DNA of 64,000 nucleotides from an uncultured Ignavibacteriaceae bacterium (GCA_964651225.1 CAZYYD010000011.1:25160-89159), one strand, 5' to 3'; shown: positions 1,106-17,355, counted from the first letter of the stretch. Notes: generated from the letters alone by a model not told the origin. Numbers and translations: made by a program.

Positions 1106-1235
1106 ATGATATCGGGACAGTGATACAGTGTAGGAGTCGATAGGGAAGATGACTCAACTTTCAGATTCAAATGGATACGATTGAGGTCCAAGAGAATGAA
1201 TGTTGCACAGGTGAAAGGCGAAAGGAGTTTAGGCT

Positions 1236-1799: not shown

Positions 1800-1977
1800 G
1801 GATTACCCAAGGAGTCTCTCTTTGAGAGGTTTCTCTATCACGGAAAAATCGAGGTCGAATCTATGAACCTGGTAGGTAAACACTGTTCATTCTGCAATGG
1901 TAAGATTCATGAATTTAGGAATAGTCAGGCTCATGCCGGTGAAAAAGCTGCGATGATTTGCCCGAAGGAGGTCGATT

Positions 1978-2664
1978 ATGAAAAAGTTGCCCTCGCAAAC
2001 TAAATTGATGAAAACACAATCTACAAAGACGCGTCAAGTTGCTCACAGCCGCTATGCTGAAGTCAGTTCCCTGATTGAATCGGCACGTGATCAGGTAGCG
2101 CAAGCGGTTAATTCAAAGCTTGTGTTGTTGTACTGGCAGATCGGCACATTGATCCGGAAGAACGTCTTGGGTGAAGAGCGAGCTGAATACGGACAACGAA
2201 TCGTCTACACACTGAGTATACAATTGATGCAAAAATATGGATCTGGTTTTTCAGAAAAAAGTCTTCAACGTATGATTCAATTTTCCGAAGTGTTTCCTGA
2301 GCAAAAGATTGTCGCATCACTGATGCGACAATTGAGCTGGACACATTTCTTGGAACTTATACCGTTCAAAGATCCACTTCAACGTGATTTCTATGTCGAG
2401 ATATGCTGTATTGAACGATGGAGCGTACGCACACTGCGAAAAAAAATCTCCGGTATGCTCTATGAACGCACCGCCATTTCCAGGAAACCGGCAAAGCTCA
2501 TTAAACAGGAATTGAAATCTCTCCGGAAGCAAGACACACTGACCCCCGGTCTTGTCTTTCGTGATCCGTACTTTTTAAGCTTTCTCGGACTGAAAGACAC
2601 TTACAGTGAGAAGGATATCGAATCGGCAATTCTCAGAGAAAAAGATGAATTTGCAGAATGTTAG
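1978..2664 (+). pseudogene. DUF1016/YhcG-family protein, N-terminal part only (PD-(D/E)XK nuclease domain missing)
   Basis: The translation shows the typical DUF1016 N-terminus (VNSKLVLLYWQIGTLIRKNVLGEERAEYGQRIV..LS..L...YGSGFSEKSLQRMIQF..QLSWTHFLELIP..DPLQRDFY....ERWSVRTLRKKI..MLYERT...FRDPYFLSFLGL). It stops at ..DIESAILREKDEFAEC*, where full-length members continue with FLLELG.GFAF and the nuclease core. Length is 228 aa versus roughly 340-370 in my memory of the family. Confidence 0.6.
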
Positions 2665-2825
2665 GGATATGTCTCTTTTTAAATGCAGAAGAGGGCTTAA
2701 ATGGGATACCGATATTGTTAGTGTTCTGGATCTTTGAACGTTGGGAAATTGTGAGCAAGTATAATCCAAACTTGACAGTTGTTCAAATATTATGTATGTT
2801 CATAATAAATGAACAGAACAATATT

Positions 2826-3872
2826 ATGAACAATTCTTCTATGAAAACCCATACGAGAAACGAAGCTGATATTCTACATAAGGCTCTTGAGGCTTTCGAG
2901 AGAGGAACTGGTTTTAAAACTAAATATTCAGAAGAACATCAAGTTGTTCTTTCCCCCTATCATAAAGGCATATTGCAGATAGGAGAGTCGAATTCCACTC
3001 AGGTACTGAACGTTGAAATCAAACTCACAATGAATGAATTTGTTCTCGGAAAACTTGTTGCACAAAATCGTCTCAACCCCGAATCGAACATTCTTGTCAC
3101 AAGATACATGCCCCCTTATCTAGCAAAAAGGATGAAGGATCTCCATCTCCAGTTCATTGATACGGCAGGCAATGCGTATGTTAACAGACCGCCACTGCTC
3201 ATCTTCATGTATGGCAACAAAGTTGCACATGTGCAGGATGAAGACACCACAGGAAATCTTTTTGGATCCGCCGGTATCCGCGTCGTGTTTGCACTTCTCT
3301 GTAAGCAGAATATGGAGCAGAGCACATACAGAGACATTGCCGCTGCGGCAGGTGTTGCGTTGGGCACAGTTGCAGGTGTCATGAAGGATCTGGCCCAGCA
3401 ACGGTATCTTCTTGAACTCGCTGATCGAGGAAGAATCTTGGTCAAAAAGGAAGATCTTGCCGATAAATGGATTGACGCATACATCAGTAGGTTTCGCGGT
3501 AGAAGATTGATCGGCAGGTATGCGGCACATCGGGAGCACTTCTGGCGTGACAGTGATTTGGGTCCGCTGACGGCCAAGTGGGGAGGGGAAGTCGCAGCGC
3601 AGAAATTGACTCACTACCTGAAGCCGGAGATTATTACCATCTATACGCATGTACCGGTGGATGGTCTTGTCATGAATCTGAAGCTGAGGAAGGACGACAA
3701 AGGTCCGATTGAACTACGGGAACAGTTTTGGGACTTTGATTTTGAAACAGAGAACAAACATACTGTCCCACCCCTCCTCGTCTATGCTGATCTTATGGCG
3801 GTGGGAGACACGCGAACACTCGAAACAGCAGAAATGGTCCATGAGGAGTTTCTCAAAAAATATTTCCAATAA
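2826..3872 (+). CDS. AbiEi-like (type IV TA) antitoxin / HTH regulator
   Basis: The ORF track gives 2658-3872; the plausible start is ATG 2826 (MNNSSMKTH). There is an internal HTH-like segment STYRDIAAAAGVALGTVAGVMKDLAQQRYL. The C-terminal VPPLLVYADLMAVGDTRTLETAEMV matches my recollection of AbiEi-type antitoxins. The 3' end overlaps the downstream nucleotidyltransferase gene by 32 nt. Confidence 0.55.
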   Translation: MNNSSMKTHTRNEADILHKALEAFERGTGFKTKYSEEHQVVLSPYHKGILQIGESNSTQVLNVEIKLTMNEFVLGKLVAQNRLNPESNILVTRYMPPYLAKRMKDLHLQFIDTAGNAYVNRPPLLIFMYGNKVAHVQDEDTTGNLFGSAGIRVVFALLCKQNMEQSTYRDIAAAAGVALGTVAGVMKDLAQQRYLLELADRGRILVKKEDLADKWIDAYISRFRGRRLIGRYAAHREHFWRDSDLGPLTAKWGGEVAAQKLTHYLKPEIITIYTHVPVDGLVMNLKLRKDDKGPIELREQFWDFDFETENKHTVPPLLVYADLMAVGDTRTLETAEMVHEEFLKKYFQ

Positions 3873-4698
3873 GCTCGATCCCGCAATCGCCAAGGTCCTT
3901 ATTGACTTAGCGGAAATAACTGCCAAGCATGCACTGCCATTCCTTGTCGTGGGTGCAGTAGCAAGAGATATTGTCTTCGGGGCTCTCTATGACATTCCAA
4001 CAACACGGGCAACATTGGATGTTGATCTGGGTCTTCGCATTAATACGTGGGATGATTTCGAGTGTGTCGTGAACGATCTGGTAAACTTGAAATCCTATCA
4101 GAAAGACAGGAAACAGATTCAACGGTTAAACTCCTCTGGGATCATCATCGATATCATCCCATTTGGACCGTTGGAGAACCCGGCCGGTTCGATCAGCTGG
4201 CCGCCTTCCTTCGACATGGTGATGAAGACCGCCGGATTCGACGAGGCATTGCGTACTGCAATCGATGTGCGAATTTCGAACGATCCAGAGGTGCTCGTGA
4301 AGGTGAGCATGCCTGCAGCATTGGCTGTTATGAAGTTATGTGCATGGAAGGACGATTATCCGAAACGGAAGAAAGACGCTCTTGATCTCAGATACCTTCT
4401 TACAAAATATATCAGTGCCGGCAATGATGTGCGTCTTTATTCCTCCGATGAAGACTTGCTTGCCGAACATCTTGACTATGATCTTGCCAGCGCGCGCCTC
4501 CTTGGGAGAGATGTTCAAGACATCTGCACACCGGCAATGCGCAGCACCATGCTCGGAATTCTCGCCGAGGAACTATCAAACAATTCCGCGTTACGACTTC
4601 TGGGCGATATGATGAACTATGATGAGCCGTCGGCGGAATCCGTGTTTCAATTGCTCAAGCAGTTTCAGAGGGGCATAGAAGAAAACCGAAATCAATAG
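3841..4698 (+). CDS. Nucleotidyltransferase, AbiEii/AbiGii (MenT-like) toxin family
   Basis: In-frame ATG at 3841 (MRSFSKNISNKLDP) lies inside ORF 3709-4698. The NTase signature is VVGAVARDIVFG....TRATLDVDLGL (G-x-x-x-R-D ... D-x-D). It is gene-paired with, and overlaps, the upstream HTH gene. Confidence 0.65.
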   Translation: MRSFSKNISNKLDPAIAKVLIDLAEITAKHALPFLVVGAVARDIVFGALYDIPTTRATLDVDLGLRINTWDDFECVVNDLVNLKSYQKDRKQIQRLNSSGIIIDIIPFGPLENPAGSISWPPSFDMVMKTAGFDEALRTAIDVRISNDPEVLVKVSMPAALAVMKLCAWKDDYPKRKKDALDLRYLLTKYISAGNDVRLYSSDEDLLAEHLDYDLASARLLGRDVQDICTPAMRSTMLGILAEELSNNSALRLLGDMMNYDEPSAESVFQLLKQFQRGIEENRNQ

Positions 4699-4892
4699 GA
4701 AGCAAATTCGTCATGCTGGAAACCATGGGAACGCCGGAACGTCATTTTGAGGGGCAGGTCACAACCAGAATGTACTGAAGAAGAGAAGAATAAATGAACT
4801 CAAAACAACAATCGGCTTTCATAAAGTTTATTTAACATCACCTCGCATTCCTCTCTGGGTGCGACTTCTGTATTATCTATTCTCAAACTCCA

Positions 4893-5157
4893 GCAATTTC
4901 TATAGGAACTTCCTAGAGAAGCTGCCGTTCTTCCCTGACATTATCTCAACCATTTACGATATTAAGACAGACGATCGAGTAAGCATTTTCTTTGAGGCAC
5001 AAGAATGAATAAACAACATCAAAAATATAAGGACATGTAATTCATAATGACCATCATCACATGCATCACTATCAATATTTCATCGCAGCAGAGGGCTTCC
5101 AACATGATGTGGACAAGTTCCTCGAACAGATCCCAAGGCTGGAAGGTGAGCATCTCG
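4893..5157 (+). repeat. Decayed cassette-head repeat, copy A (palindrome + spacer + N-terminal coding remnant)
   Basis: Aligns by eye with 5686-5923: it starts with ctataggaacttcctagagaagctgccgttcttccctgacatt. About 140 nt later it has ATG 5061 encoding MHHYQYFIAAEGFQHDVDKFLEQIPRLEGEHL (55-aa ORF ending 5228), which parallels MHLYQYFSIAKGFRYDMDTFLEQIPVQERVHL of copy B. Confidence 0.6.
4900..4918. repeat. Island palindrome copy (ctataggaacttcctagag)
   Basis: AGGAA-N-TTCCT core with extended inverted arms, in an intergenic spacer. Confidence 0.7.
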
Positions 5158-5685
5158 TCATTACAAGATTGTGCAGGCACTGTCTGCACAATTATAATGG
5201 TCGTACGATTTTATTCTCTGGCCGATGAGTTGATAATGGGTTCTCTGAAAATCAATCAATCCAACCCAATTATGATAGACAATACCCTCTATGATGGCGT
5301 AAAAACTAAGGAATTGTAAATAGGCTTGGATAAATAAAGAAATGAAGTCAATAATGCCTTGGAATTTTTCAATAATTGTTTAAAAAAATGGCGGCGGGCG
5401 ATTTGAAAGAATATTCAGTGAAGGATGATAGTTTTTTGCTTCTAGGTTTCCAAGCCGTGCACCATGGCAAGAGGAAAATACAAGAAAAGGATTGTGGCAT
5501 ACCGCCAACACCTCTCTCCTCATGCGGATCATCAACTATTGGTTACTTCCGTCGCTTTCAGTTTCCCCAGGTATATCGTTTACCTTCTTTGCGACAAGCG
5601 GTGGGCGGATCTTTACGAACGGTTCTGAGAGGAAATGAGTGAATTTGCCGCTCACATCCTCCTCGATTTCGTGATAGGCCTTCCA

Positions 5686-5923
5686 AAATTCCATAGGAAC
5701 TTCCTATTGAAGCAGTCGTTCTCCCGTGACATTCTCGCCGCCCTTTACCATATTGATTTAAACAGATCGGGGAGATGAATACCTTGAAACAGAAGCATCT
5801 AGATTGAAATAATCCATAAGGATCGCCATGCATCTCTATCAATATTTTTCCATTGCAAAGGGTTTCCGGTATGATATGGACACCTTCCTCGAACAGATTC
5901 CAGTGCAGGAGCGTGTGCATCTC
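5686..5923 (+). repeat. Cassette-head repeat, copy B
   Basis: ccataggaacttcctattgaagcagtcgttctcccgtgacatt... followed by ATG 5828. It is homologous to 4893-5157 at both nucleotide and translated level. Confidence 0.6.
5691..5709. repeat. Island palindrome copy (ccataggaacttcctattg)
   Basis: Same core, intergenic. Confidence 0.7.
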
Positions 5924-6328
5924 GGGAGTCCTTTTTCGATCCAGCCGGTCTTTTTGAAGCGGAAGAATCTGCATTTCATCTATGGAACGGAAAGGTTCAA
6001 GCTGTTCATTCTGGCGCTCTATTATTCTTTATTGTTTCAAGAGGTCATGCGCAGCTCTTTTCCGGAACATGAAAAGAATATACCTTCATCGTCCATCTTC
6101 CCGGGTTATTGGGGTCCATGCGATTCCTTCTGCAGGGAGAGGCTGCATCCGAAGGCCCTTCTTCCGCAGAAGGGTGATCTGGAAGAAAAGGAGATATATG
6201 CGTACATCACCCAGGCTCAGCCGGATATGCGGTCTCTTTCAGAACGACTGCTCAAAGACTTTCAAATTGACATAGATCATAAAATGTTTTGGAGGAAAAT
6301 GATGGAAGAACTAAGATCTGTCAGGTGA
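5828..6328 (+). CDS. Hypothetical protein (166 aa), paralogous to the truncated ORF at 5061-5228
   Basis: ORF from the track. Its only support is the conserved N-terminus shared with copy A. I recognised no domain and it may itself be decayed. Confidence 0.3.
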   Translation: MHLYQYFSIAKGFRYDMDTFLEQIPVQERVHLGSPFSIQPVFLKRKNLHFIYGTERFKLFILALYYSLLFQEVMRSSFPEHEKNIPSSSIFPGYWGPCDSFCRERLHPKALLPQKGDLEEKEIYAYITQAQPDMRSLSERLLKDFQIDIDHKMFWRKMMEELRSVR

Positions 6329-6526
6329 AATATGATCGCGTTCAAACTATAATAGAAGGGCATCGATTTCTGACTAGAATCAACGAAAAAAAGCCCTTAT
6401 TTCGGCGAAAATCAGGAAATTGTAACCATTTATTGACTTTGAGATCATTTTTACTATCTTAATATAAGCGATTAAACTTAATTAAATAGATTCATTAATT
6501 AAAGATAAGGCATTATGTTTTATTAA

Positions 6527-7693
6527 ATGGTTAGTCCAATAATTGCAATCATGGATATAAAAGATTTCTTCGCCGGAAATTATATACAACAGTATCAATA
6601 CAAAAGCTTCTCACCTTCAAAGATCAACAAGGAGTGGGTGTGGACCGATCCGCAGCTTAACACCCTGCTTTCTGAGGCCAACCTTAAGCTTGGAGCACTG
6701 AACGCATATTCGCTTCAAGTTCCCAATGTAGATCTCTTCAGAGAGATGTACGTTCTGAAGGAGGCCACGACATCAAGCCGTATTGAGGGAACAAGGATAG
6801 AGGTTGAAGAGGCAATACTGAAGGAGAAGGATGTCCGGCCCGAGAAAAAAAACGACTGGCAGGAAGTGCGGAACTATATTGCTGCGATGAATTTTGCGGT
6901 AGAGAAGCTCGTGCAGTTGCCCGTATCGACACGGCTCCTGAAGGAGACCCTTGCGTTTTTACTTCCCGGCTCTTTGGATAGCGAAAGAATTCCCGGGAAA
7001 TACCGGACCAGCCAGAATTGGATCGGAGGGGTCACACTGAAGGATGCAGTCTTCGTGCCTCCGCATCCCGAAGAGGTGAAGGATCTCATGGAGGACCTTG
7101 AACAGTTTCTTCATAATGGAGCCCTTCATGTTCCGCCGTTGATCCGCATCGCACTGGCACATTATCAATTTGAGACCATCCATCCGTTCCTTAATGGAAA
7201 CGGAAGGATGGGGCGGCTCCTTATTACGCTCTATTTGGTCGGGGAGCGTCTGCTGTCGAAACCGACGTTCTATCCGTCTGCGTATCTGGAAAAACACAAA
7301 GGCCTGTATTATGACAATTTAACGACGGCACGAAGATCTAATAATCTGACCCAGTGGGTCAAATATTTCCTTGTGATGATCATCGAGACCTGTGAAGACG
7401 GTGTGAAAACATTCCAGAACATCCTACGGCTGCGCGAGGAGATCGAAGGCCGGCAGATACTTTCTCTCGGAAGAAAGGTCCCGAAAGCGAAAGAATTGAT
7501 GACGCTGTTGTACACAAGTCCCGCGGTCAACGGCGTGGCGGTCTCGAAGGCATTAAAGATCTCCCTCCCGACGGCGAATGCGCTGATAGACGACTTTGTG
7601 GGGCTGGGCATTCTGAAAGAATCAACAGGACTGAAGCGGAACCGGCTCTTTGTGTTTACAGAGTATTTGAATCTTTTTCAGAACAAGGAATAG
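6527..7693 (+). CDS. Fic/DOC family protein with Fic_N region and C-terminal wHTH
   Basis: Fic motif HPFLNGNGRMGR (the HxFx[D/E]GNGRxxR position carries N). N-terminal ..KEATTSSRIEGTRIE.. block. C-terminal wHTH AVSKALKISLPTANALIDDFVGLGILKE. An alternative start is ATG 6551. Confidence 0.85.
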   Translation: MVSPIIAIMDIKDFFAGNYIQQYQYKSFSPSKINKEWVWTDPQLNTLLSEANLKLGALNAYSLQVPNVDLFREMYVLKEATTSSRIEGTRIEVEEAILKEKDVRPEKKNDWQEVRNYIAAMNFAVEKLVQLPVSTRLLKETLAFLLPGSLDSERIPGKYRTSQNWIGGVTLKDAVFVPPHPEEVKDLMEDLEQFLHNGALHVPPLIRIALAHYQFETIHPFLNGNGRMGRLLITLYLVGERLLSKPTFYPSAYLEKHKGLYYDNLTTARRSNNLTQWVKYFLVMIIETCEDGVKTFQNILRLREEIEGRQILSLGRKVPKAKELMTLLYTSPAVNGVAVSKALKISLPTANALIDDFVGLGILKESTGLKRNRLFVFTEYLNLFQNKE

Positions 7694-7780
7694 GAACGAA
7701 GATGTTCCCGGGGTAGGTCAGTTGATGCGTCGGTTTTATCCGACAACAATTTATTCATTTATTGAAAGGAGGGATGGAGT

Positions 7781-8398
7781 ATGGCATTCACGGCATTTGA
7801 AGAACTGAAAATGGAATATCGGGCGCTTCAATTGATTGCAATTCTGGTTGAGTCAAAGCTTAGAAACGAAACCGGCATTTCTGCAGCCCAAATCGTCCAG
7901 GAAATGGAAAAAAGAATAGGAGAAAAATTCTATGGCGACAATATCCATACTTTGATTGAACAAATTGCGGAAACATGGAATTACGGCAACATCAACATTA
8001 CCGTGGAACACATTGAAAGAGCAGGAACGATTCCAGCGGATAGGCGTGTGCCGTTATACAGACTTAGAGATGATTTTACGATTGAGATGTGGAATCAACT
8101 CTTGAGAGTGGCATTCTGTGTAGCCTTCCTCAAGCATGGGTTAATGAAGCCGCTGGAAGCGCAGAACCCGCTCTCTGAGAGAAAAGAAGAAGACTATTTA
8201 CATATGATGAACCTCGTTACAGCATTAGAGAAGAACTCAGAAATACATACAAAGGGCGCGGATACTGGAATTCGAAATCGATTTAAACCTAAGAATATTG
8301 TATTGAAAGTTCCCCCGTTCGTCCAATATGATTCAAGATTTGGGCCTGAAGAAGAACGTTTAGATCTATTGTTAAAAGGGGGCATAGATCTCGTTTAG
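7781..8398 (+). CDS. Hypothetical protein (205 aa), possible N-terminal wHTH
   Basis: RBS-like aaaggaggg lies upstream of the ATG. It sits 88 nt downstream of the Fic gene on the same strand. I recognised no family. Confidence 0.5.
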   Translation: MAFTAFEELKMEYRALQLIAILVESKLRNETGISAAQIVQEMEKRIGEKFYGDNIHTLIEQIAETWNYGNINITVEHIERAGTIPADRRVPLYRLRDDFTIEMWNQLLRVAFCVAFLKHGLMKPLEAQNPLSERKEEDYLHMMNLVTALEKNSEIHTKGADTGIRNRFKPKNIVLKVPPFVQYDSRFGPEEERLDLLLKGGIDLV

Positions 8399-8495
8399 TA
8401 GAATGCGCTCTTCTAACAAACCGTTCTCTTTGACCAAGGCGTACTTATATTGCCAAGTACGCCTTGGTCTTTTCTTGTCAATCCCACCATAATAT

Positions 8496-8514
8496 CTGTA
8501 GGAACTTCCTCTGA
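8496..8514. repeat. Island palindrome copy (ctgtaggaacttcctctga)
   Basis: AGGAACTTCCT core, 160 nt upstream of the Fic remnant start. Confidence 0.65.
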
Positions 8515-8673
8515 GAGGGGCCTATTGGTCTTGCTTAATTTCACAATCCTGAGCATCTTACTCAAGAAGAGATTGGTATGTATCTGATCCATTGTGGCAA
8601 AGGAGGAATTCTCTTATGAATGCACCATTGCATCTCTTTCTAGTTCCATCTACTTGTACTTAACCAATGCTCG

Positions 8674-9083
8674 TTGGACACAATGCCCTTCAAAGCTCAT
8701 GCCCCGTATAATGATCTGCCAAAATTACCTCCAAAGGTAATTCTGGAAACTTCGCGTGTTCTCAAAAAAGTGACGGCTGCCCGGAGTAGCCTTGGAGAAT
8801 TAAAAGGCATAGGAAAACTCTTACCCAGCCAAAGACTCTTGCTGAACACATTGATACTGGAAGAAGCGCGTAACAGCTCCGAGATAGAGAATATCATCAC
8901 TTCTCATGATAGTCTCTATCGGGCGCTTGTATTAGGCTCGAAGAACTTCTTGATCAGCTCGCAAAAACCGGAATTCTGAAGAAGTCTAAGACAGGCAAGG
9001 AGGTTCTTTTTCTCAACAAGAAACTCCTCGATGTATTTTCAAAGAATCCTTATGTCGGTGCTAGAATCCGTGCATTCTACTGA
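8674..9083 (+). pseudogene. Fic family remnant with internal deletion of the catalytic domain
   Basis: Frame A (8674-8979) encodes a Fic_N-type N-terminus (LPKLPPKVILETSRVLKKVTAARSSLGELKG...EEARNSSEIENIITSHDSLYRAL). From about 8937 a different frame encodes the family C-terminal wHTH (LEELLDQLAKTGILKKSKTGKEVLFLNKKLLDVFSK..) up to TGA 9081-9083. The HxFxxGNGR core is absent. Confidence 0.6.
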
Positions 9084-9085
9084 TA

Positions 9086-9162: not shown

Positions 9163-9283
9163 CGTTCGAAAAAGATGTGTTCCAGTGCCTTTATCTTCTT
9201 TACTGCTACTGTGTGTAGCGATCAATGCGCCTTTCGCTTGCGTGTGTATATCTTCCTTCTTCCCCCTCCGACCCCGTAAATAT

Positions 9284-9302
9284 CTAGAGGAGTTTCCTAT
9301 AG
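9284..9302. repeat. Island palindrome copy (ctagaggagtttcctatag)
   Basis: Lies about 90 nt upstream of the nuclease operon. It is followed by gaagccgctgcttattgctgactttctc, similar to the tails of the copies at 4900 and 5691. Confidence 0.6.
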
Positions 9303-9390
9303 AAGCCGCTGCTTATTGCTGACTTTCTCGGTCTCATTCAATACCATTAGAGTGTAGACGAAAGAAGTCAAGATGAACAAGGAGCGGGTC

Positions 9391-10233
9391 ATGAAAAAAA
9401 AGAATCCTCAACCGAAAAAATTCAGTTATTATTTCAAGAAAGCGGATGCATTCAACATCCTCTATCCTGTAGAGCATGTGATTGAGATCTCGAACGCATT
9501 CAGACTCATACCCGAAATCATCACGGTCGATCCCCGCCCCGCGGCAGGAGACATCTGGGATATGGGGGAGCGGAAAAACGATCAGGGGGAGATGTGCCGC
9601 GCCTATGTCTTGACGAACCGCGCATTGCAGCGTATTGCCCAGGCCGCCGAGATCACCTTCGATCCACGTCACACGCACCGGACGGATGACGGCAGGAACC
9701 CCCGTCGGGTTGAGTACCAGGCGACAGGCCTGCTTCGCAGGCAGGACGGGCACTGGATGAGCATCACACAGTCAAAGGAAATTGATCTTGACGTGATCGA
9801 GTCAGAGATCAGGACAGAACTCGAGGTGGCTGCGGCCGGCAGCGGTCTCACAATCTCCAGGAACGGCAAGGAGCAGATTCTCAGACCTGACAATCCGGAA
9901 TGCGCCAGAGAAATTGCCCGCCGCATTGCCGTCAGAATGCGGCTGTGGAAAAGGAACAAGGTGACCTTCGCCCTCACCGGTGCCACCAAACGCGTCATTC
10001 GTGCTCTGCTGCTCATCAAGGATTTCTACACGATGGAGGATCTCAAGAAGCCATTTGTCGTTCCCCGCGTCTCTCTCGATATCGACCGTCTTCTGGAAGA
10101 TGGGGAGATCAAGAAGCATTTCACGGCCTCGTTTCTTGAACAGTCCCTGAGCGTCTTCGGTCCGATGTCAGAGCCGGAGCGTTCCCGCGCGGCGATTGGT
10201 CTTGGTGTCCACACGGCGGGAGGGGCTCTATGA
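9391..10233 (+). CDS. Hypothetical protein, candidate Erf/Rad52-like single-strand annealing protein
   Basis: The ORF track gives 9373-10233. The second ATG at 9391 is preceded by aaggag with a 6-nt spacer. The segment FALTGATKRVIRALLLIKDFYTMED resembles the Erf/Rad52-type helix as I recall it from P22 Erf (..QVTGATSSYARKYCLNGLFGIDD). The stop overlaps the next start (ATGA at 10230-10233). Confidence 0.6.
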   Translation: MKKKNPQPKKFSYYFKKADAFNILYPVEHVIEISNAFRLIPEIITVDPRPAAGDIWDMGERKNDQGEMCRAYVLTNRALQRIAQAAEITFDPRHTHRTDDGRNPRRVEYQATGLLRRQDGHWMSITQSKEIDLDVIESEIRTELEVAAAGSGLTISRNGKEQILRPDNPECAREIARRIAVRMRLWKRNKVTFALTGATKRVIRALLLIKDFYTMEDLKKPFVVPRVSLDIDRLLEDGEIKKHFTASFLEQSLSVFGPMSEPERSRAAIGLGVHTAGGAL

Positions 10234-11438
10234 AAATTGTCCATACCGCCGACTGGCACTGGTCGGAACATCGGCTCGATAAATGCCGGCAGAGCGCTGA
10301 GTTCATCCTTGCCCGGCTGGAAGACATTCGGCCCGATCTCCATATCATTGCGGGGGATTACTGGGACAAACGGCAGGTGCTGGCGCGCTCGAGTGCTGCG
10401 CTTCCGGCGATCGAAGCCATGATGCGACTGGCTTCGATCTCGCCGGTGATCGTCATTCTGGGAAATGATGCCCATGATGCGGCTGGAAGTCTGGAGCTCT
10501 TCGGCGATCTTCGAACCGTCTATCCGGTCTATGCTTCGGAGCGTCCGGAAACGATCGCCCTGCGGCTGGGAAAGGATGCGCAGCCATATTTTGAACGCTG
10601 CGCGCCCTTCAGCGATTTGGAAAAAAAATCAGGGGTGCCGCAGGTGCTTGTGCATCTCCTGCCGTATTTCACGAAAAGCCACCTGCTGGCAGAGCGTTCG
10701 GAGATGTCTATCGATGCTTCGAACCTTTACCTCCGGGAATCGCTGAGAAAGATATTCCTGGGCTTTGCGGCTGTCGGAGCCGGCCATGCCTGTCCGCATA
10801 TCCTTGCGGGTCACTGCAGCATCACCGGCGCTCTCATCTCCTCCGGGCAGACGCTGATCGGGCAGGACGTTGAAGTTTCAAAGAATGACCTGGCTCTGGC
10901 ATGCGCTGACTACTATGCTCTCGGCCATATCCATGTGAATCAGGAGATCGCTCCTGGCATGTGGTATGCCGGAAGCACGTATCACAACAATTTCGGAGAG
11001 ACGGAACGGAAGTACTTCAACATCGTGGACTTCGCGCACAAGCGTCTTGCCGTCGAGAGGATCGAAATTCCTTCGCGCCCGCTCTCGCTCCATGAGGTAC
11101 GGCTGGATTCAGCGACTGACACGCTGGTGGATGAGAAAGGAGTCGAGGACTGGTCGGGTGCGGAACTCCGCGTCCGGGTGCATTTGAAAAAGGAACAGGA
11201 ACGATCTGTCGATGACGGTCGGATCCGCCGGAAGTTTCCCGGGGCATGGTCGTACTCGATCGAGCGGATCATCGCTCCCGAGGAGCGGCTTCGTTCGGAG
11301 GGAATCGCGGATGCCCGAAGCCTGAAGGAGAAGCTCCGGGAATGGGCCTTCACGGTCGAACGAGATGTGCCGAACGAGGTCCTGGAGATTGCCGATGAAG
11401 CGGAAGCTGCCGTACGATCCACCATCCAGGAAGGGTAG
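10230..11438 (+). CDS. Mre11/SbcD-like calcineurin-type metallophosphoesterase (nuclease subunit)
   Basis: Ordered phosphoesterase motifs are present: HTADWHW (D-x-H), AGDYWD (GD-x-x-D), GNDAHD (GN-[DH]), AGH and LGHIH (G-H-x-H). At 402 aa it has typical SbcD size. Confidence 0.85.
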   Translation: MKIVHTADWHWSEHRLDKCRQSAEFILARLEDIRPDLHIIAGDYWDKRQVLARSSAALPAIEAMMRLASISPVIVILGNDAHDAAGSLELFGDLRTVYPVYASERPETIALRLGKDAQPYFERCAPFSDLEKKSGVPQVLVHLLPYFTKSHLLAERSEMSIDASNLYLRESLRKIFLGFAAVGAGHACPHILAGHCSITGALISSGQTLIGQDVEVSKNDLALACADYYALGHIHVNQEIAPGMWYAGSTYHNNFGETERKYFNIVDFAHKRLAVERIEIPSRPLSLHEVRLDSATDTLVDEKGVEDWSGAELRVRVHLKKEQERSVDDGRIRRKFPGAWSYSIERIIAPEERLRSEGIADARSLKEKLREWAFTVERDVPNEVLEIADEAEAAVRSTIQEG

Positions 11439-11445
11439 GAAAACA

Positions 11446-13854
11446 ATGAAACCGATATCATTGAAACTGCGCGGAGCTCTTGGGATTCGTGATGGTCTCG
11501 ATCTCGAGGAGATCGAACTTGATCTCACATGCTTTTCGCCGGGACTCATCTGCATTGTCGGACCGAATGGATCGGGGAAAACGACCCTCATGGATAATCT
11601 CCATCCGTTTCTGGAGCTGCCTAGCCGCACGGGGTCGCTCGCGAATCATTTCTTCCTGCGCGACAGCATGCGTGAATTCGTCTTTGCGCTCGGCGGGAGA
11701 ACCTATCGTTCCTGCGTCCTGATCGATGCACAGACCAGGAAGACCGAGGCCTATCTCTACCAGGGCGATACTGTGATGAATGACGGCCGCATCTCATCGT
11801 ACAACGCGAAGGTCGAACAGCTCGTCGGATCATCCGCCCTGTTCTTCAAGAGCATCTTCGCCGCGCAGGGAGCAAGCGGGATTACGCGCATGACGAGCGC
11901 CGAGCGCAAGGAACTGTTCTTTGAGCTCTTGGATCTTCAGATCTATGAGGCCTATGTCCAGTATGCGGGAGGTAAAATCGCAGAGATGGAGAAAGAGTAT
12001 GCCGCCTCCAGAGCCGTTGCCGAACGGGGAAGGAAGGAATTGGACGAGCGCGCACATGTTGAGTCAGAACTGGCGTTCTCGAAGAAGGAAATGGAGAACT
12101 TGACCTCGCTCCTTGCTATGAAGACCGTAGCGGTAAAAGAAATCGAAGCACGGGTACGCGGCATTCAGCGGGAGCTTGAGGAGCAGAACCGCCGGAGGCA
12201 GGAACACGCCCAGCTGAAGACAGAGATCGCCGCCCTGGAAAAGAAGCTCGATCAAGCCTCGGCGCACCACGCCTCGGAAATAAAAGAGCTCACGGATAAA
12301 CAGACCGAAGGTCAGCGGGAGATCACGCGGCTCAGAGGAATCCTCGGGCGCAGCGTTGAGATCAGGAGCCATGTTGAGCATCTGTGCAAATTACGCCTCC
12401 GTCAGGATGAGCTCGCGCAGATGGAAAAAGAGTTTATCGCATGGCAGCAAAGAGAGAGCGAACGGAAATTGAAGATCCAGCAGCAATTGCATCAGCGCAC
12501 GATGGAGCTCGGAGGCCTGAAGCAGGAGGAGGCAAAACTCTTATCAGAAGCACAGCGCCTGAGATCTGCTGCGGAGAGAGAGACGGCCCTGGTCTCCCGC
12601 CGTCTGGCTGATGTGCGAGCGGTGGCCGCCCCTGTGAATGCGGTTCCATGCCGGGAGAGAGAAGGGCTCTTCACCGCCTGCACCCTGCTGCTCAACGCAC
12701 GAAAGGCGCTCGACGACATTCCAGCTCTTGAGGAGAAACTCAGGTCTCTTGAATCACAGGAGTACTATGAAAGCATCGGCGGAGGAGAGGTTAACGCGAA
12801 GCTCAGCGCTCTGCGAGAGACCCAACGGAGATTGACCGAGAGTGTGACTGTTGATGAATCTCTGACGAAGCAAGGGACATCTCTTCCCCCGGTGGGTTAT
12901 GATACAACCATCCACCAGGAGGTGAGAGACAGGATCAAAAAGCTTGAGGCTGATCATTGGGAACAGCTCGCTGTTGAATTGCAGGTAGCCGGTTCGGTCC
13001 TGAAGGAAAAAGAAAACCAGCAGCAAAGCCTCTCTGCTCAAAGAATCGAAAGAGAAACAAGAGGCAACATTCTTCTCGGGGAAATCAAGGCTCAGATCGC
13101 CGAGAAGCGTGACCGGTGCCGGGAGGCGGAGGATTCGAGGGATTACGCACGGCTTGCAGAGCAGTGCAGCAGGGAACTGAAGGAGGCGGAGCGGTCTCTC
13201 GTCGAGCTCCGGAAGCAGGAACTCGGACTCCACGCATGCATTGCTTCAGCAGAGGCTACACTGCAGCGCTTGGAGAAGCTTCAGGAAGAGGTCTCCGGGA
13301 ATGAAGCTAACATCCGAACGCTCATGAAGAGTCTTGAAGAGTGGAAGTTCTTTCAGCGCGCCTGTTCCAAGGAGGGCATTCCCGCCCTGGAATTGGATGC
13401 CGCCGGCCCAGCCGTGAGCCGCATCGCCAATGATCTTCTCGCTTCCTCGTTCGGTGTCCGGTTCCAGATCGCCTTTGAGACCACCCGGCTCTCGAAGGAC
13501 GGGAAGAAGCAGTTGGAGACCTTTGACATCCGGATCATGGGCGAGGCAGGCGAAAAACATATTGAGGATCTCAGCGGGGGAGAACAGGTGTGGATCGAGC
13601 GGGCGATCTCCGAAGCGATCGCCATCTATCTCTCCCGGAAATCGGGGAAGGAATACCTCACCACGTTCCAGGATGAGTCCGACGGGGCTCTCGATCCGGA
13701 GAACAAGCAGAACTACCTTCGGATGCTGCAGGAATCCTTCCGCCTCGGACGCAGAGCGTTTACCTTTGTCATCACGCAGAGTCCCGAGATCTGGCAGCAG
13801 GTCGAGCAGCGGATCCACCTCTCCCGGGAGTCATCGATGGAACTTGTATACTAG
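11446..13854 (+). CDS. Rad50/SbcC/T4 gp46-like SMC-type ATPase (802 aa)
   Basis: ATG 11446 follows agga, 7 nt after the upstream stop. Walker A is GPNGSGKTT. The central region is long, heptad-rich and K/E/R/Q/L-rich. The signature motif is LSGGEQ and Walker B/D-loop is TTFQDESDGALD. Confidence 0.85.
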   Translation: MKPISLKLRGALGIRDGLDLEEIELDLTCFSPGLICIVGPNGSGKTTLMDNLHPFLELPSRTGSLANHFFLRDSMREFVFALGGRTYRSCVLIDAQTRKTEAYLYQGDTVMNDGRISSYNAKVEQLVGSSALFFKSIFAAQGASGITRMTSAERKELFFELLDLQIYEAYVQYAGGKIAEMEKEYAASRAVAERGRKELDERAHVESELAFSKKEMENLTSLLAMKTVAVKEIEARVRGIQRELEEQNRRRQEHAQLKTEIAALEKKLDQASAHHASEIKELTDKQTEGQREITRLRGILGRSVEIRSHVEHLCKLRLRQDELAQMEKEFIAWQQRESERKLKIQQQLHQRTMELGGLKQEEAKLLSEAQRLRSAAERETALVSRRLADVRAVAAPVNAVPCREREGLFTACTLLLNARKALDDIPALEEKLRSLESQEYYESIGGGEVNAKLSALRETQRRLTESVTVDESLTKQGTSLPPVGYDTTIHQEVRDRIKKLEADHWEQLAVELQVAGSVLKEKENQQQSLSAQRIERETRGNILLGEIKAQIAEKRDRCREAEDSRDYARLAEQCSRELKEAERSLVELRKQELGLHACIASAEATLQRLEKLQEEVSGNEANIRTLMKSLEEWKFFQRACSKEGIPALELDAAGPAVSRIANDLLASSFGVRFQIAFETTRLSKDGKKQLETFDIRIMGEAGEKHIEDLSGGEQVWIERAISEAIAIYLSRKSGKEYLTTFQDESDGALDPENKQNYLRMLQESFRLGRRAFTFVITQSPEIWQQVEQRIHLSRESSMELVY

Positions 13855-13864
13855 GAGAGAGTCT

Positions 13865-14260
13865 ATGAAACAGAACGAAGAACTCATTGCAGAGCTCGAC
13901 GCCCTTCGGGCGATCCATGGCGAGAGCGCATTTGAACGTGCAGTCCAGATGATACGGTGCCGCAAGCTGACACTGTTCTCCCGGCCGCCGCGGAAGAAAT
14001 TCCCCTGGGCGAAATACCGGAAGCTCTATCAGCTGCAGCAGGGAATGTGCCCCTACTGCAATACGCCGCTCTTTCTGAAGAAGGGGGAGGTCGAGATCGA
14101 TCACCGGGACCCCAACCGTCCGGACTTTAATGCGGAAACCAACCTGCAGCTTCTGCACAAGCGCTGCAACCGGAAGAAGTCCGCCCGCTCGATTCCCGCA
14201 GAGGCAAAATCACACAATACGACATACATCCATCTGCTCACGGGGAAGGGTGACACATGA
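13865..14260 (+). CDS. HNH endonuclease (131 aa)
   Basis: ATG 13865 follows aggagag. The HNH layout is CPYCNTPL...EIDHRDP...NLQLLHKRCNRKK (C-x-x-C ... D-H ... N ... H-x-x-C-N). Confidence 0.8.
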   Translation: MKQNEELIAELDALRAIHGESAFERAVQMIRCRKLTLFSRPPRKKFPWAKYRKLYQLQQGMCPYCNTPLFLKKGEVEIDHRDPNRPDFNAETNLQLLHKRCNRKKSARSIPAEAKSHNTTYIHLLTGKGDT

Positions 14261-14353
14261 TCGAATGGAGAAGGAATACGTCTTTTCGACCGCCATCTTA
14301 GAGGAATTTGCTTATTATATACAAAAGTATATATTTATATACAATAGTATATA
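14231..14353 (+). repeat. Direct repeat DR1 (3' end of HNH gene plus operator pair)
   Basis: catctgctcacggggaagggtgacacatgatcgaatggagaaggaa...tatatacaaaagtatata.. aligns with 16515-16637 (catctgctcatggggaagggtgattcgtgatcgaatggaggaggaa...tatatacaaaagtatata..). Confidence 0.75.
14316..14353. promoter_or_regulatory. Two tandem inverted repeats TATATAC-N4-GTATATA (candidate operators)
   Basis: The repeats are tatatacaaaagtatata (14316-14333) and tatatacaatagtatata (14336-14353). Their starts are 20 nt apart and they lie 42 nt upstream of the wHTH-NTase gene. The same pair recurs at 16600-16637. Confidence 0.55.
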
Positions 14354-14394
14354 ATGACGTTCGTTCTAAGAACATATCCTGAAAGGATCTTCCG

Positions 14395-15006: not shown

Positions 15007-15109
15007 ACAGCTATGAATATTGCATCTGTTCCAATCTGCGCTTTGACTGATGACAAATCATTAAAATAATAAACTGAGAATTATATCTCTGAACTGCCCG
15101 CGATAAGTT

Positions 15110-16330: not shown

Positions 16331-16514
16331 GGTTCGTCCATTATGTTAGTCTTATAACAATATAGCCGATTTATTGAAATAGTCAAATGGAATATCATAC
16401 AGCTTCCCGGATTGTAGAGGATGAAGTCATGAATCTTTCGGAGGGACAAGCAAGAATGTGATTTCCATTATGGTGGGAGATCCACGTGGAGCAATCGTTC
16501 ATACAACGTACGTT

Positions 16515-16637
16515 CATCTGCTCATGGGGAAGGGTGATTCGTGATCGAATGGAGGAGGAAAACGCATGTTCGACCTGCATTTTGAAGGAATGTGTTGATT
16601 ATATACAAAAGTATATATGTATATACTTAAGTCTATA
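16515..16637 (+). repeat. Direct repeat DR2 (orphan copy of the HNH 3' end plus operator pair)
   Basis: See DR1. Here no intact ORF precedes the copy. It lies 185-300 nt upstream of the start of the minus-strand ATPase gene. Confidence 0.75.
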
Positions 16638-16915
16638 AAGACATTTTTTCCCCCTCTCGAATGAAATCCTAAGTTTCAAGGATGTGAGTTTGTCCCTCTT
16701 CATGCATAAATGTCCCATGTATATCAAAACTTGTAGAGAGTACCTTGGAAATCATCTTTCTCATAAGGATCCAAGATATTTTTACTTTCGAATAAAACCC
16801 TGAACAGAATATTCTTTTGTTCATAAGGACAAGGATCTTAACCCCTGTTCATTCAGATTGCCTTCCATTCCCGATTCCTCTCTCGTTTTATTCTGCGAAC
16901 GAACTCAGAATTATT

Positions 16916-16933
16916 CAAAGGAATTTCCTATAG
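16916..16933. repeat. Island palindrome copy (caaaggaatttcctatag)
   Basis: AGGAATTTCCT core in the 1-kb AT-rich spacer. A half-copy, tctataggaaatc, is at 17151-17163. Confidence 0.6.
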
Positions 16934-17355
16934 AAATGCTAAAATCGAGCAGTTTTTTTTAAAAAAAAAGCTATCTATTATATAGAGAGGCCCATTCTTC
17001 TGGGTCGGAAAGGAGTTGTATGAAATCAATATTGAGTGGTTTGGAAAAAATATCAAGGAGATCATGGTTAACGGCATCAATATTCACTACAGAAGGTTTC
17101 TATACAACCATCAGATCGGAGTTGGTTTTCTCTAAAACCGTAAATATAAATCTATAGGAAATCTTTTCTTGTACAAAAATCTGGTTGTCGTGAGGGGTCA
17201 AAATTCCTAAATATTATATATAGAGCACATATGCAACGAGGAAAGGAGGTATAAGTTGCGCAATATTCGAAATGTTTCAAAGAAGTCACAAGGATTTCAA
17301 GACGATCATGGAAACATGAATCAATTATTAAACCAAAATAAAAGGAGATACAAAT

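What the first reader, a model, noticed from the sequence alone, without database searches (positions are those of the whole stretch)
1822..17167. Recurrent palindrome CTATAGGAAnTTCCTATAG marks the intergenic spacers of the accessory island
The AGGAA-N-TTCCT core occurs at 4900-4918, 5691-5709, 8496-8514 and 16916-16933. A near copy (AGGAGTTTCCT) is at 9284-9302, and weaker relatives are at 1822-1840 (ttgagaggtttctctatca), 14297-14315 (cttagaggaatttgcttat) and 17151-17167. Every copy is intergenic, downstream of one + strand gene and 90-200 nt upstream of the next. I did not find the core in the remaining 47 kb. A motif with 10 fixed positions is expected about 0.1 times by chance in 128 kb of two-strand sequence. 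The copies at 4900, 5691 and 9284 also share about 45 nt to the right (gaagc.gc.g.t.t..c.tgac.tt.tc....catt.a). The one-site-per-gene-module layout resembles cassette boundaries (attC-like logic) or a shared operator placed in front of each module.
Basis: seen in the sequence. Interest (0 to 1): 0.62.

Follow-up and report, generated by a model that had tools for sequence, protein, structure and literature searches.

The report
Shared operator palindrome in defence island
A 23-base palindrome recurs in front of several toxin-antitoxin and defence-like gene modules of an uncultured lake bacterium, always at the same distance from a weak promoter. It is most likely the docking site of one regulatory protein that controls these modules together, and not a gene-cassette recombination site.

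Summary
**Observation.** It holds. The core AGGAANTTCCT occurs 4 times in the window (0.08 expected), and there is one near copy. The full element is a 23-bp palindrome, TTCTATAGGAA-N-TTCCTATAGAA. A sixth, perfect copy lies 3.1 kb upstream of the window on the same contig. All six fall within 20 kb of the 86.5 kb I could read. The three "weaker relatives" score at background level.

**Position.** In five copies, and in an orthologous copy in a related organism, a -10-like hexamer starts exactly 49 nt from the dyad centre. Weak -35 boxes lie 17 nt upstream of it, so the centre sits at about -61.

**Conservation.**
- The palindrome is far better conserved than its flanks (0.76 against about 0.3 pairwise identity).
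- It does not keep hairpin pairing.
- It survives at the orthologous promoter in a relative whose proteins are 43-73% identical.
- In that relative its core also overlaps the transposase promoter of an IS256-family element.

**Against a cassette site.** There is no recombinase, no attC-like fold, and no strain junction at the sites. More distant relatives of the same operons lack the palindrome.

**Verdict.** This is a shared transcription-factor site inside a portable promoter (confidence about 0.6). The regulator is not identified. It is a new member of a known kind and of moderate interest.

The parts
4898..4920 (.). Palindrome copy TTCTATAGGAACTTCCTAGAGAA (21/22), dyad centre 4909
4935..4963 (+). 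Inferred promoter CTGACA-17-GATATT. The -10 starts 49 nt from the dyad centre. It drives a decayed paralogue of the 166-aa gene (ATG 5061).
   Evidence: repeat D3
5689..5711 (.). Palindrome copy TTCCATAGGAACTTCCTATTGAA (20/22), centre 5700
5726..5754 (+). Inferred promoter GTGACA-17-CATATT in front of the 166-aa gene (5828-6328)
8494..8516 (.). Palindrome copy ATCTGTAGGAACTTCCTCTGAGA (16/22). The core is perfect and the outer arms are decayed. Centre 8505. It lies upstream of a Fic_N gene remnant (8674-8979).
8531..8559 (+). Weak promoter-like boxes TTGCTT-17-CATCTT at the same offset as in the other copies
9282..9304 (.). Palindrome copy ATCTAGAGGAGTTTCCTATAGAA (19/22), centre 9293
9319..9347 (+). 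Inferred promoter CTGACT-17-TACCAT in front of the four-gene operon: 286 aa, Metallophos/SbcD-like, SMC_N/SbcC-like and HNH (9373-14260)
16913..16935 (.). Palindrome copy ATTCAAAGGAATTTCCTATAGAA (18/22), centre 16924. It is followed by a T/A tract and TATTAT at +52, and has no -35 box.
17150..17172 (.). Probable decayed tandem copy. The left half TCTATAGGAA is kept (12/22). It is supported only by the duplicated flank 17200-17225, which matches 16964-16989.
   Evidence: (D13)
4843..4864 (+). Weak terminator-like hairpin 34 nt before the 4898 copy
8432..8469 (+). Strong intrinsic-terminator-like hairpin (15 pairs plus a T run). It ends the Fic/205-aa unit 25 nt before the 8494 copy.
1..1799 (+). 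3' part of the operon that starts behind the perfect palindrome copy upstream of the window. The operon holds an M28-like 255-aa gene, AAA, cREC_REC, a split AlbA_2/HATPase_c_4 gene, a wHTH gene and cREC_REC.

Best explanation
The element is a 23-bp two-fold symmetric DNA site, with half-site TTCCTATAGAA. A dimeric sequence-specific DNA-binding protein most likely recognises it. It forms the upstream part of a small portable promoter of about 75 nt, laid out as follows:
- the palindrome
- a 14-nt gap
- a weak -35 box, (C/G)TGAC(A/C/T)
- a 17-nt spacer
- a weak -10 box, TACCAT, GATATT or CATATT

This geometry puts the dyad centre at about -61 from the inferred transcription start. That is the position used by class I activators and by the recognition site of LysR-type regulators.

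Copies of this promoter stand in front of at least four unrelated defence-like or toxin-antitoxin-like transcription units inside one 20-kb sub-island:
- the operon M28-like peptidase / AAA / cREC
- the 166-aa gene and its decayed paralogue
- a Fic remnant
- the operon 286-aa / SbcD-like / SbcC-like / HNH

One regulator could therefore switch these units together. Where the same core overlaps a core promoter, as in the IS256-family transposase promoter of the related organism, the same protein would repress.

Shown:
- the sites and their clustering
- the fixed spacing
- sequence conservation without conserved pairing
- conservation at the orthologous promoter

Inferred:
- that a protein binds the site
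- the transcription start
- the sign of regulation
- the identity of the regulator, which is unknown
For: 1. **Enrichment and clustering.** Six sites score 16-22 of 22 and all lie within 20.1 kb. None lies in the other 66 kb of the contig, where the background maximum is 15.
2. **Fixed geometry.** A -10-like hexamer with A at position 2 and T at position 6 starts exactly 49 nt from the dyad centre in the copy upstream of the window and in the copies centred at 4909, 5700, 9293 and 8505. The same holds in the orthologous promoter of the relative L221, although the sequence in between has diverged.
3. **Promoter type.** The organism uses canonical sigma70 promoters. Its lexA promoter is TTGACA-17-TATATT with a CTGT-N8-ACAG box. 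The palindrome-linked boxes are weak versions of this, as expected for factor-dependent promoters.
4. **Conservation of the site.** Pairwise identity anchored on the dyad is 0.76 in the palindrome and 0.28-0.36 in all flanking blocks. Half-site positions 1-7 and 9-10 are nearly invariant in 16 half-sites.
5. **No selection for pairing.** The two arms decay independently, without compensatory changes. Only the perfect or near-perfect copies fold better than shuffles as single strands. So it is the sequence that is selected.
6. **Conservation across organisms.** In L221, whose proteins are 43-73% identical, the palindrome (20/22) is the longest conserved block upstream of the orthologous M28-like operon.
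7. **Independent context.** The 17-nt perfect palindrome GATAGGAACTTCCTATC lies inside an IS256-family element of that relative. It overlaps the spacer and -10 region behind TTGACC and is identical in 8 insertion contexts.
8. **Expression.** In four metatranscriptomes the palindrome-driven genes are nearly silent, whereas the neighbouring Fic/205-aa unit is expressed. The most upstream RNA piece of the M28 operon starts 17 nt after the inferred start site.
9. **Motif type.** TAGGAA-N-TTCCTA fits the LTTR box T-N11-A, and -61 is close to the usual position of about -65 (PMC8407307). BrxR R-BOXes are a precedent for 11-bp inverted-repeat operators repeated within a defence island (PMC9122601).
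Against: - No cognate regulator gene was found. No site lies in front of an evident transcription-factor gene.
- The 166-aa protein is under palindrome control in both organisms. It gives a confident all-alpha model with no DNA-binding match.
- Four of the promoter copies share ancestry, as their flanks align (D2, A1). Part of the constant spacing may therefore be inherited rather than selected.
- The copy at 16924 lacks the -35 box, and its best -10 hexamer is 3 nt out of register.
- RNA contigs run through the copies at 4898 and 8494 and end 6-36 nt behind them. This could point to an RNA-level role.
- The RNA data are assembled contigs at depth 2-14. They have no strand information and no mapped 5' ends.
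- The rest of the genome could not be scanned.
Confidence: 0.6

Rival explanations
1. The palindrome is a site-specific recombination or cassette-boundary site with attC-, dif- or FRT-like logic. A recombinase would cut at the palindrome and so insert, excise or shuffle promoter-bearing gene modules.
For: - Modules of different G+C lie behind the sites: 57% for 10-14 kb against 44-47% around it.
- Gene remnants abut the sites.
- Module order differs between the window and relative L221. The 166-aa gene is the last gene of the palindrome operon there, but has its own palindrome here.
- 12 nt of the palindrome are identical to the FRT arm GTATAGGAACTTC (my own knowledge of FRT).
Against: - No tyrosine or serine recombinase gene is in the 86.5 kb.
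- The layout is 11-1-11 and the centre is the best conserved part. Xer, Cre and Flp sites have a variable 6-8 bp spacer, and serine recombinases need a central dinucleotide.
- There is one site per unit, not two flanking sites.
- There is no attC-sized fold, and the degenerate copies do not fold.
- Four DNA runs show no joints or loose ends at the sites.
- In L221 only one module carries the site.
- Homologous operons travel without it.
- The fixed 49-nt offset to the -10 has no meaning for recombination.
Confidence: 0.1
2. The palindrome is a relic of duplication. One promoter region was copied several times inside the island, and the palindrome has no function of its own.
For: - The copies at 4898, 5689 and 9282 and the upstream copy share 45-69 nt of flank (D2; A1).
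- The 4898 and 5689 units are a tandem duplication that includes the first 33 codons (D3).
- The 16913 and 17150 units also look tandem (D13).
Against: - The palindrome is much better conserved than the co-duplicated flanks: 0.76 against about 0.3.
- The copies at 8494 and 16913 keep the core while their flanks are unalignable.
- The site is kept at the orthologous promoter of an organism whose proteins are only 43-73% identical.
- The same 15-17-nt palindrome occurs in an unrelated IS with no flank similarity.
Confidence: 0.12
3. The palindrome acts at the RNA level or as a hairpin. It would be a 3'-end stabiliser, terminator or processing hairpin of the upstream transcript, similar to a REP element.
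For: - RNA contigs 4717-4935 and 4754-4926 cover the 4898 copy and end 6-15 nt behind it.
- Contigs of the Fic unit read through the terminator and end at 8545-8552, behind the 8494 copy.
- The perfect copy folds at -10.2 kcal/mol, z = -3.8.
- Each copy lies downstream of a + strand gene.
Against: - There are no compensatory changes. The arms decay independently, and four of six copies fold no better than shuffles.
- The best conserved bases are the central AGGAA-N-TTCCT. These would form the loop and closing pairs.
- No T run follows the palindrome.
- There is no Rfam match.
- The copies cluster in 20 kb instead of being dispersed.
- There is no RNA over the copies at 5689, 9282 or upstream of the window.
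Confidence: 0.08
4. The right half GGAACTT is the -35 box of an alternative (ECF-type) sigma factor promoter. The symmetry would be incidental or would give bidirectional firing.
For: - GGAACTT equals the -35 consensus of RpoE-type sigma factors (my own knowledge).
- A semi-conserved TTCT/ATCT lies 16 nt downstream in three to four copies.
- Defence and stress modules are plausible ECF targets.
Against: - This does not explain why both arms are conserved out to position 11.
- It does not explain the fixed offset to sigma70-like boxes in the ortholog, where the putative ECF -10 is not kept.
- No RNA contig starts about 30 nt behind a dyad centre.
Confidence: 0.08

Closest known systems
BrxR / CapW-type (WYL-domain) regulators and their R-BOX operators in phage-defence islands (PMC9122601)
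   Same: Both are 11-bp inverted repeats bound (here: presumed bound) by a dimeric regulator. Both occur more than once inside one defence island, in front of different defence operons, so that the island is switched as a unit.
   Different: - R-BOX is 11-5-11 and lies downstream of, or over, the promoter, so it represses. Here the layout is 11-1-11 and the centre is at about -61.
- No WYL gene was found in the 86.5 kb. A WYL regulator does accompany the homologous AAA module in the distant relative L235.
- There are six copies here instead of two.
LysR-type regulator recognition site (LTTR box T-N11-A, near -65) (PMC8407307)
   Same: TAGGAA-N-TTCCTA is a dyad of the form T-N11-A. ATAG-N7-CTAT is the half-motif I recall for OxyR. 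The centre at -61 is close to the usual -65. The weak core promoter fits a need for activation.
   Different: - There is no divergently transcribed LTTR gene.
- No second (activation) site was recognised beyond shared ancestry of the flank.
- LTTR boxes usually conserve the outer bases rather than the centre.
KorA/KorB global operators of IncP-1 plasmids (from my own knowledge)
   Same: In both cases one palindromic operator is repeated at many promoters of an accessory element. It sits at different distances from the core promoters and gives coordinate control of otherwise unrelated modules.
   Different: This is a chromosomal island and not a plasmid. No regulator gene was identified in the element, and the sequence is unrelated.
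Integron attC sites / CALIN arrays
   Same: Both are a recurrent imperfect palindrome between successive same-strand gene units in an accessory region rich in toxin-antitoxin genes.
   Different: - attC is 57-141 bp with R''/L''/L'/R' boxes and a conserved folded single strand. It lies 3' of mostly promoterless cassettes.
- Here the site is 23 bp and its fold is not conserved. It lies 5' of each unit and is fused to a promoter.
- No IntI gene is present.
FRT site of the yeast 2-micron Flp recombinase
   Same: 12 consecutive bases (TATAGGAACTTC) are identical to the FRT arm.
   Different: The arms face each other head to head with a 1-bp centre, instead of flanking an 8-bp spacer. No Flp-like gene is present. 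The resemblance is best taken as coincidence.

Membership tests
Integron attC / CALIN | Imperfect inverted repeats R''-L''...L'-R' of 57-141 bp that fold as a single strand with extrahelical bases | tested here: not met
   83-nt stretches around each copy were folded as ssDNA. Only the 23-bp palindrome pairs, and 4 of 6 copies fold no better than shuffles.
Integron attC / CALIN | IntI tyrosine recombinase with attI and Pc next to the array (complete integron) | tested here: not met
   No integrase or recombinase domain is among the called genes and long ORFs of the 86.5 kb. The rest of the genome could not be searched.
Integron attC / CALIN | Site at the 3' end of each, mostly promoterless, cassette; gene content varies at the sites | tested here: not met
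   The site is fused to a promoter 5' of each unit. There are no variant junctions at the sites in 4 DNA runs. The closest relative has the site at only one module.
Xer/dif-like module sites (pdif) and other tyrosine-recombinase core sites | Two 11-13-bp binding arms around a 6-8-bp, poorly conserved crossover spacer | tested here: not met
   The layout is 11-1-11. The central AGGAA-N-TTCCT is the most conserved part.
FRT / Flp | 13-bp arms inverted around an 8-bp asymmetric spacer, and a Flp-family recombinase | tested here: not met
   There is a 12-nt identity to one arm, but the opposite arm arrangement and no spacer. No such gene was found.
LTTR recognition site | Dyad containing T-N11-A, centred near -65 of the regulated promoter | tested here: met
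   TAGGAA-N-TTCCTA has the form T-N11-A. The dyad centre is 49 nt before the -10, which is about -61. The definition is from PMC8407307. The motif is loose, so this is weak evidence.
LTTR recognition site | A cognate LysR-family regulator, usually divergently transcribed, that binds the site | tested here: not met
   No LysR-family gene was found among the long ORFs and called genes scanned in the 86.5 kb. The lookups covered the longer ORFs and were not exhaustive. Binding is not testable here.
Defence-island operator of BrxR/CapW type | Inverted repeats of about 10-11 bp at promoters of defence operons | tested here: met
   11-bp arms are repeated at the promoters of the M28/AAA/cREC, 166-aa, Fic-remnant and SbcCD-like/HNH units.
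Defence-island operator of BrxR/CapW type | An adjacent WYL-domain wHTH regulator gene | tested here: not met
   No WYL domain was found in the scanned proteins of the contig. A WYL gene occurs only in the distant relative L235, which lacks the palindrome.
REP / BIME / MITE-like dispersed palindromes | Many copies dispersed genome-wide, pairing conserved, mostly 3' of genes | tested here: inconclusive
   In 86.5 kb the copies are clustered, not dispersed, and pairing is not conserved. The rest of the genome could not be scanned.

The most novel reading that the evidence does not exclude
The palindrome plus weak promoter may be a portable 'wiring' cassette of an Ignavibacteria-like lineage. Newly acquired defence and toxin modules would be placed behind copies of it, and even an IS transposase promoter would carry its core. 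A single, still unidentified, lineage-specific regulator would then turn a whole set of unrelated immune and abortive-infection modules on or off together. That would amount to an island-wide inducible immune regulon built by promoter propagation, not by operon fusion or a linked WYL-type regulator.
Probability: 0.25. Interest if true: 0.65.

Novelty: new member of a known kind. Interest (0 to 1): 0.38.

Why it matters
How defence islands are regulated as units is poorly known. The documented cases, the WYL regulators BrxR and CapW, involve one or two operators next to the regulator gene. This island has six copies of one operator-like site at a fixed position in front of at least four unrelated modules. 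An orthologous copy, and a copy in an IS promoter, occur in a second organism.

If one factor binds all of them, three things follow:
- It would be a simple natural example of coordinate control of heterogeneous defence and toxin modules.
- It would give a handle, the 23-bp site, for fishing out the regulator and its signal in an uncultured Ignavibacteria-like lineage.
- It would show that a promoter-operator unit can spread within an island.

If it is only an ordinary local operator family, the result still removes the integron-like reading.

Tried and rejected
2. **Pattern scan of genome contigs.** TAGGAANTTCCTATAGAA gave 38 single, unrelated hits. The window's own genome is not in that collection.
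3. **Pattern scan of viral contigs.** It gave 43 single hits, which is chance level.
4. **Pattern scan of metagenome contigs.**
   - The one multi-copy family found (L104, L137, L146, L158, L219) lies on eukaryote-like DNA. L137 carries EMP70 and LTR-retrotransposon RT/integrase genes. I rejected it as unrelated.
5. **Relatives of the 286-aa/SbcCD-like operon** (L095, L098, L099) and **of the AAA gene** (L233-L236). None has the palindrome or an analogous recurrent palindrome.
6. **The 166-aa protein as candidate regulator.** It belongs to a rare family. The model is confident but has no DNA-binding or any PDB match, so this is unsupported.
7. **LexA as the binding factor.** Rejected, because the organism's LexA box is CTGT-N8-ACAG.
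8. **Rfam scan of the island.** No hits.
9. **Literature search for the motif.** It returned only FRT primers and unrelated sequences.
10. **Walking to the 3' end of the contig.** This failed because the 849-aa product is not on record.
11. **Strain-level junctions.** None was seen at the sites, but depth was only 2-10x.

Full report
**1. Check of the observation**

- The core AGGAANTTCCT occurs four times in the 64-kb window, at 4904, 5695, 8500 and 16919. Shuffles give 0.08 expected.
- A fifth copy at 9284 has one core mismatch.
- Read with their flanks, the copies are versions of a 23-bp perfect palindrome, TTCTATAGGAA-N-TTCCTATAGAA.
- The window comes from a 99.9-kb lake-water metagenome contig (ena ERZ27248961 k141_366941). 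I walked upstream on it with the look-up of encoding contigs. This showed a sixth copy that is a perfect 22/22 match (25 nt with the flanking G/C). It lies 3,135 nt before the window start and 113 nt (dyad centre to ATG) before a 255-aa M28-peptidase-like gene.
- In the 86.5 kb of this contig that I could assemble, the six sites score 16-22 of 22. The best other 23-mer scores 15.
- All six sites lie within 20.1 kb. None lies in the other 66 kb, which holds further toxin-antitoxin modules (HigBA, VapBC, HipBA, PemK) and core genes.
Only the one at 17150 has support from a duplicated flank (D13).

**2. Setting**

- The region is a toxin-antitoxin and defence-like island. It holds:
  - AbiEi/AbiEii
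  - Fic
  - a four-gene operon of a 286-aa gene, a Metallophos (SbcD-like) gene, an SMC_N (SbcC-like) gene and an HNH gene
  - an HTH-nucleotidyltransferase
  - DUF4143 ATPases
  - a PDC-M21A-like gene
  - HipA
  - upstream, an operon of M28-like, AAA (IetA-like), cREC_REC and AlbA_2/HATPase_c_4 genes
  
- T9SS sorting domains, and the names sources give to AAA homologues (Ignavibacteriales, Ignavibacteria), point to an Ignavibacteria-like member of the FCB group.
- The lexA gene (32943-33590) has a textbook promoter, TTGACA-17-TATATT, overlapped by CTGT-N8-ACAG. Sigma70-type -35/-10 reasoning is therefore legitimate for this organism.

**3. Anatomy**

- To the right of the palindrome, four copies share 45-69 nt (D2; A1).
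- Anchoring on the dyad centre gives the same layout in the upstream copy and in the copies centred at 4909, 5700, 9293 and 8505:
  - a 14-nt gap
  - a weak -35 box (GTGACC, CTGACA, GTGACA, CTGACT or TTGCTT)
  - a 17-nt spacer
  - a -10-like hexamer (TACCAT, GATATT, CATATT, TACCAT or CATCTT) that starts exactly 49 nt from the centre
- With the -10 at -12 to -7, the dyad centre is at about -61.
- The copy at 16924 differs. It has a T/A tract instead of a -35 box, and TATTAT at +52.
- Terminator-like hairpins precede the copies at 4898 and 8494. A typical unit therefore reads: terminator, palindrome, weak promoter, gene or genes.

**4. What is conserved**

- Pairwise identity anchored on the dyad is 0.76 inside the palindrome and 0.28-0.36 in every flanking 23-nt block.
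- In 16 half-sites, positions 1-7 and 9-10 (TTCCTAT.GA) are nearly invariant.
- The two arms decay independently, with no compensatory changes.
- Folded as single strands, only the perfect and near-perfect copies beat shuffles. Four of six do not.
- The sequence, especially the centre, is therefore constrained, and base pairing is not. This points to recognition of double-stranded DNA by a symmetric protein. It argues against attC-like folded substrates and RNA hairpins.
- No Rfam family matches.

**5. Relatives**

- *Distant homologues of the SbcCD-like/HNH operon* (44-62% identity; L095, L098, L099) have no palindrome. Two of them instead carry a divergently transcribed S24-peptidase (LexA/CI-type) repressor gene.
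- *Distant homologues of the AAA gene* (L233-L236) also lack the palindrome. One sits next to a WYL regulator.
- *The closest relative found* is contig L221/L223 from the same study.
  - Its proteins are 58% (M28-like), 73% (AAA), 56% (Fic), 55% (166-aa) and 43% (205-aa) identical to those of the window organism.
  - It has TTCTATAGGAATCTCATATAGAA (20/22) at the orthologous place upstream of the M28-like operon.
  - That site is the longest conserved block of the intergenic region. A TATTAT hexamer again starts exactly 49 nt from the centre.
  - Module order differs. There the 166-aa gene is the last gene of the palindrome-driven operon, and Fic/208-aa lies just upstream without a palindrome. 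In the window the 166-aa gene has its own palindrome-promoter, plus a decayed tandem duplicate.
- *An IS256-family element in the same relative* carries the perfect 17-nt palindrome GATAGGAACTTCCTATC.
  - The element has a Transposase_mut gene and recognisable terminal inverted repeats. I saw it in eight contigs with several different flanks.
  - Fifteen nt of the palindrome are identical to the 5700 copy.
  - It lies between a TTGACC box and the ribosome-binding site, overlapping the spacer and -10 region.
  - No flank similarity accompanies it. The shared feature is the site itself, so a trans-acting factor in this lineage probably recognises it.

**6. Expression and population data**

*RNA.* These data are Logan contigs at low depth and carry no strand information, so they are weak evidence.
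- In four lake metatranscriptomes the Fic/205-aa unit (6553-8552) is the only clearly expressed part. The palindrome-driven genes are nearly silent.
- For the M28 operon there is no RNA upstream of L008 position 9967. That is 17 nt behind the inferred start site.
- RNA pieces also cover the copies at 4898 and 8494 and end 6-36 nt behind them. I keep this as evidence for the RNA-level rival.

*DNA.*
- Four DNA runs show no joints or divergent contig ends at any palindrome.
- Loose ends occur only inside conserved domains and at 5926.

**7. Explanation**

- The best-supported reading is a binding site for a dimeric DNA-binding protein, built into a small portable promoter.
- The geometry (centre at -61, weak -35 and -10 boxes) is that of class I activation or of an LTTR recognition site. 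The inner 13 bp, TAGGAA-N-TTCCTA, fit the loose LTTR box T-N11-A (PMC8407307).
- The same factor would repress where the site overlaps a core promoter, as in the IS.
- A pure repressor acting from -61 is also possible. The near-silence in situ fits either an absent activating signal or repression.
- Copies of the promoter evidently spread within the island. There are tandem duplications at 4898/5689 and at 16913/17150. A copy is also fused to the relocated 166-aa gene and to the SbcCD-like operon, whose relatives use a local S24 repressor instead.
- The regulator is not identified. The only DNA-binding candidate inside a palindrome-driven operon is the AlbA_2/HATPase_c_4 gene with its wHTH tail. 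That gene is split into 360-aa and 106-aa parts in every contig seen.

**8. Comparison with known systems**

- The closest functional precedent is the BrxR/CapW class. BrxR binds 11-bp inverted repeats (11-5-11) at two places in the pEFER defence island (PMC9122601).
- This island differs in four ways:
  - a 1-bp centre
  - an upstream position
  - six copies
  - no linked WYL gene
- The KorA/KorB operators of IncP-1 plasmids are a similar logic on a plasmid (from my own knowledge).
- Membership in attC, dif or FRT classes fails on tested features: length, spacer, fold and recombinase.
- The 12-nt identity to the FRT arm is noted as a coincidence.

**9. Verdict**

- The cassette or attC reading is not supported.
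- The shared-operator reading is supported by anatomy and by comparative data, but not by any binding or transcription-start experiment. The regulator is unknown.
- It is a new member of a known kind: a lineage-specific operator family with a small regulon in a defence island.
- Interest is moderate. It lies in the coordinate wiring of unrelated defence modules and in the reuse of the site in an IS promoter.

Noticed in passing
L223 5172-6510 (also L224-L230): An IS256-family insertion sequence in the related organism, seen in 8 contigs with several different flanks. It has terminal inverted repeats GAGTTACCTTTAAAAGTTGTGTAAA / TTTTACACAACTATTGACTATGTCTC. The palindrome core lies inside its transposase promoter.
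   Followed up: partly
window 5828-6328; L221 12894-13394: The 166-aa protein belongs to a very rare family, with 13 representatives in 1.8 billion proteins. It has invariant G-x-C-x3-C and nearly invariant H-P motifs. The AlphaFold model is confident (pLDDT 89.6, all-alpha) and has no PDB match at E <= 0.001.
   Followed up: partly
window 9373-14260; L098 9075-14893; L099 5719-11549; L233 1100-8170: The four-gene operon (286 aa / SbcD-like / SbcC-like / HNH) is conserved in a few metagenomic relatives. Two of them have a divergently transcribed S24-peptidase repressor gene next to it. In L233 an SbcD/SbcC-like pair is followed, in the same gene row, by a cREC_REC + AAA pair. The two palindrome-driven modules of the window may therefore be functionally linked.
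   Followed up: partly
window 5924-5926: A DNA contig of run X3 matches from 5926 onward but has unrelated sequence before it. That is exactly where the tandem repeat D3 (5060-5157 / 5827-5924) ends. The 5' 33 codons of the 166-aa gene may be a recombinant head, and another variant exists in the population.
   Followed up: no
window 1-1105; L008 12659-14117: The AlbA_2/HATPase_c_4 gene and its wHTH tail are called as two ORFs (360 + 106 aa) in all contigs from different samples. The split is a fixed feature of the population and not an assembly error.
   Followed up: partly
window 8432-8552: RNA contigs of the Fic/205-aa unit run through a strong terminator-like hairpin (15 pairs plus a T run, 8432-8469). 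They end 76-83 nt later, behind the palindrome and a second small hairpin (8517-8532).
   Followed up: partly
window 32780-32942: The lexA promoter is TTGACA-17-TATATT, overlapped by an E. coli-type LexA box CTGT-N8-ACAG. This shows canonical sigma70 promoters, Shine-Dalgarno sites and a gamma-proteobacterial-type SOS box in an FCB-group organism.
   Followed up: partly
L104, L137 (608 and 5110), L146, L158, L219: A repeat family in other metagenomes carries TTCTACAGGAA(C/G)TTCCT(A/G)TAGAA with more than 100 nt of conserved flanks. L137 also encodes EMP70 and LTR-retrotransposon RT/integrase, so this is a eukaryotic dispersed repeat that happens to contain a similar palindrome.
   Followed up: partly
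L061, L075, L081, L087, L088, L091, L093 (Lachnospiraceae MAGs): The search pattern also hits a conserved sequence ...CTTCGCGAACTCGTGCATGAACGTAGGAATTTCCTATAGAA in many Lachnospiraceae genomes. It looks like the conserved end of a gene, followed by a terminator, and is unrelated to the island element.
   Followed up: no
window 14217-14366 and 16501-16650: A 150-nt direct repeat (80% identical) brackets the HTH-nucleotidyltransferase and the DUF4143 ATPase genes. It contains TATATAC-N4-GTATATA dyads, which form a second, different operator-like motif of the island.
   Followed up: no
window 4898-4920 and other copies: 12 consecutive bases of the palindrome (TATAGGAACTTC) are identical to the arm of the yeast FRT site. 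The arm arrangement differs and no Flp-like gene is present, so I take this as coincidence.
   Followed up: partly
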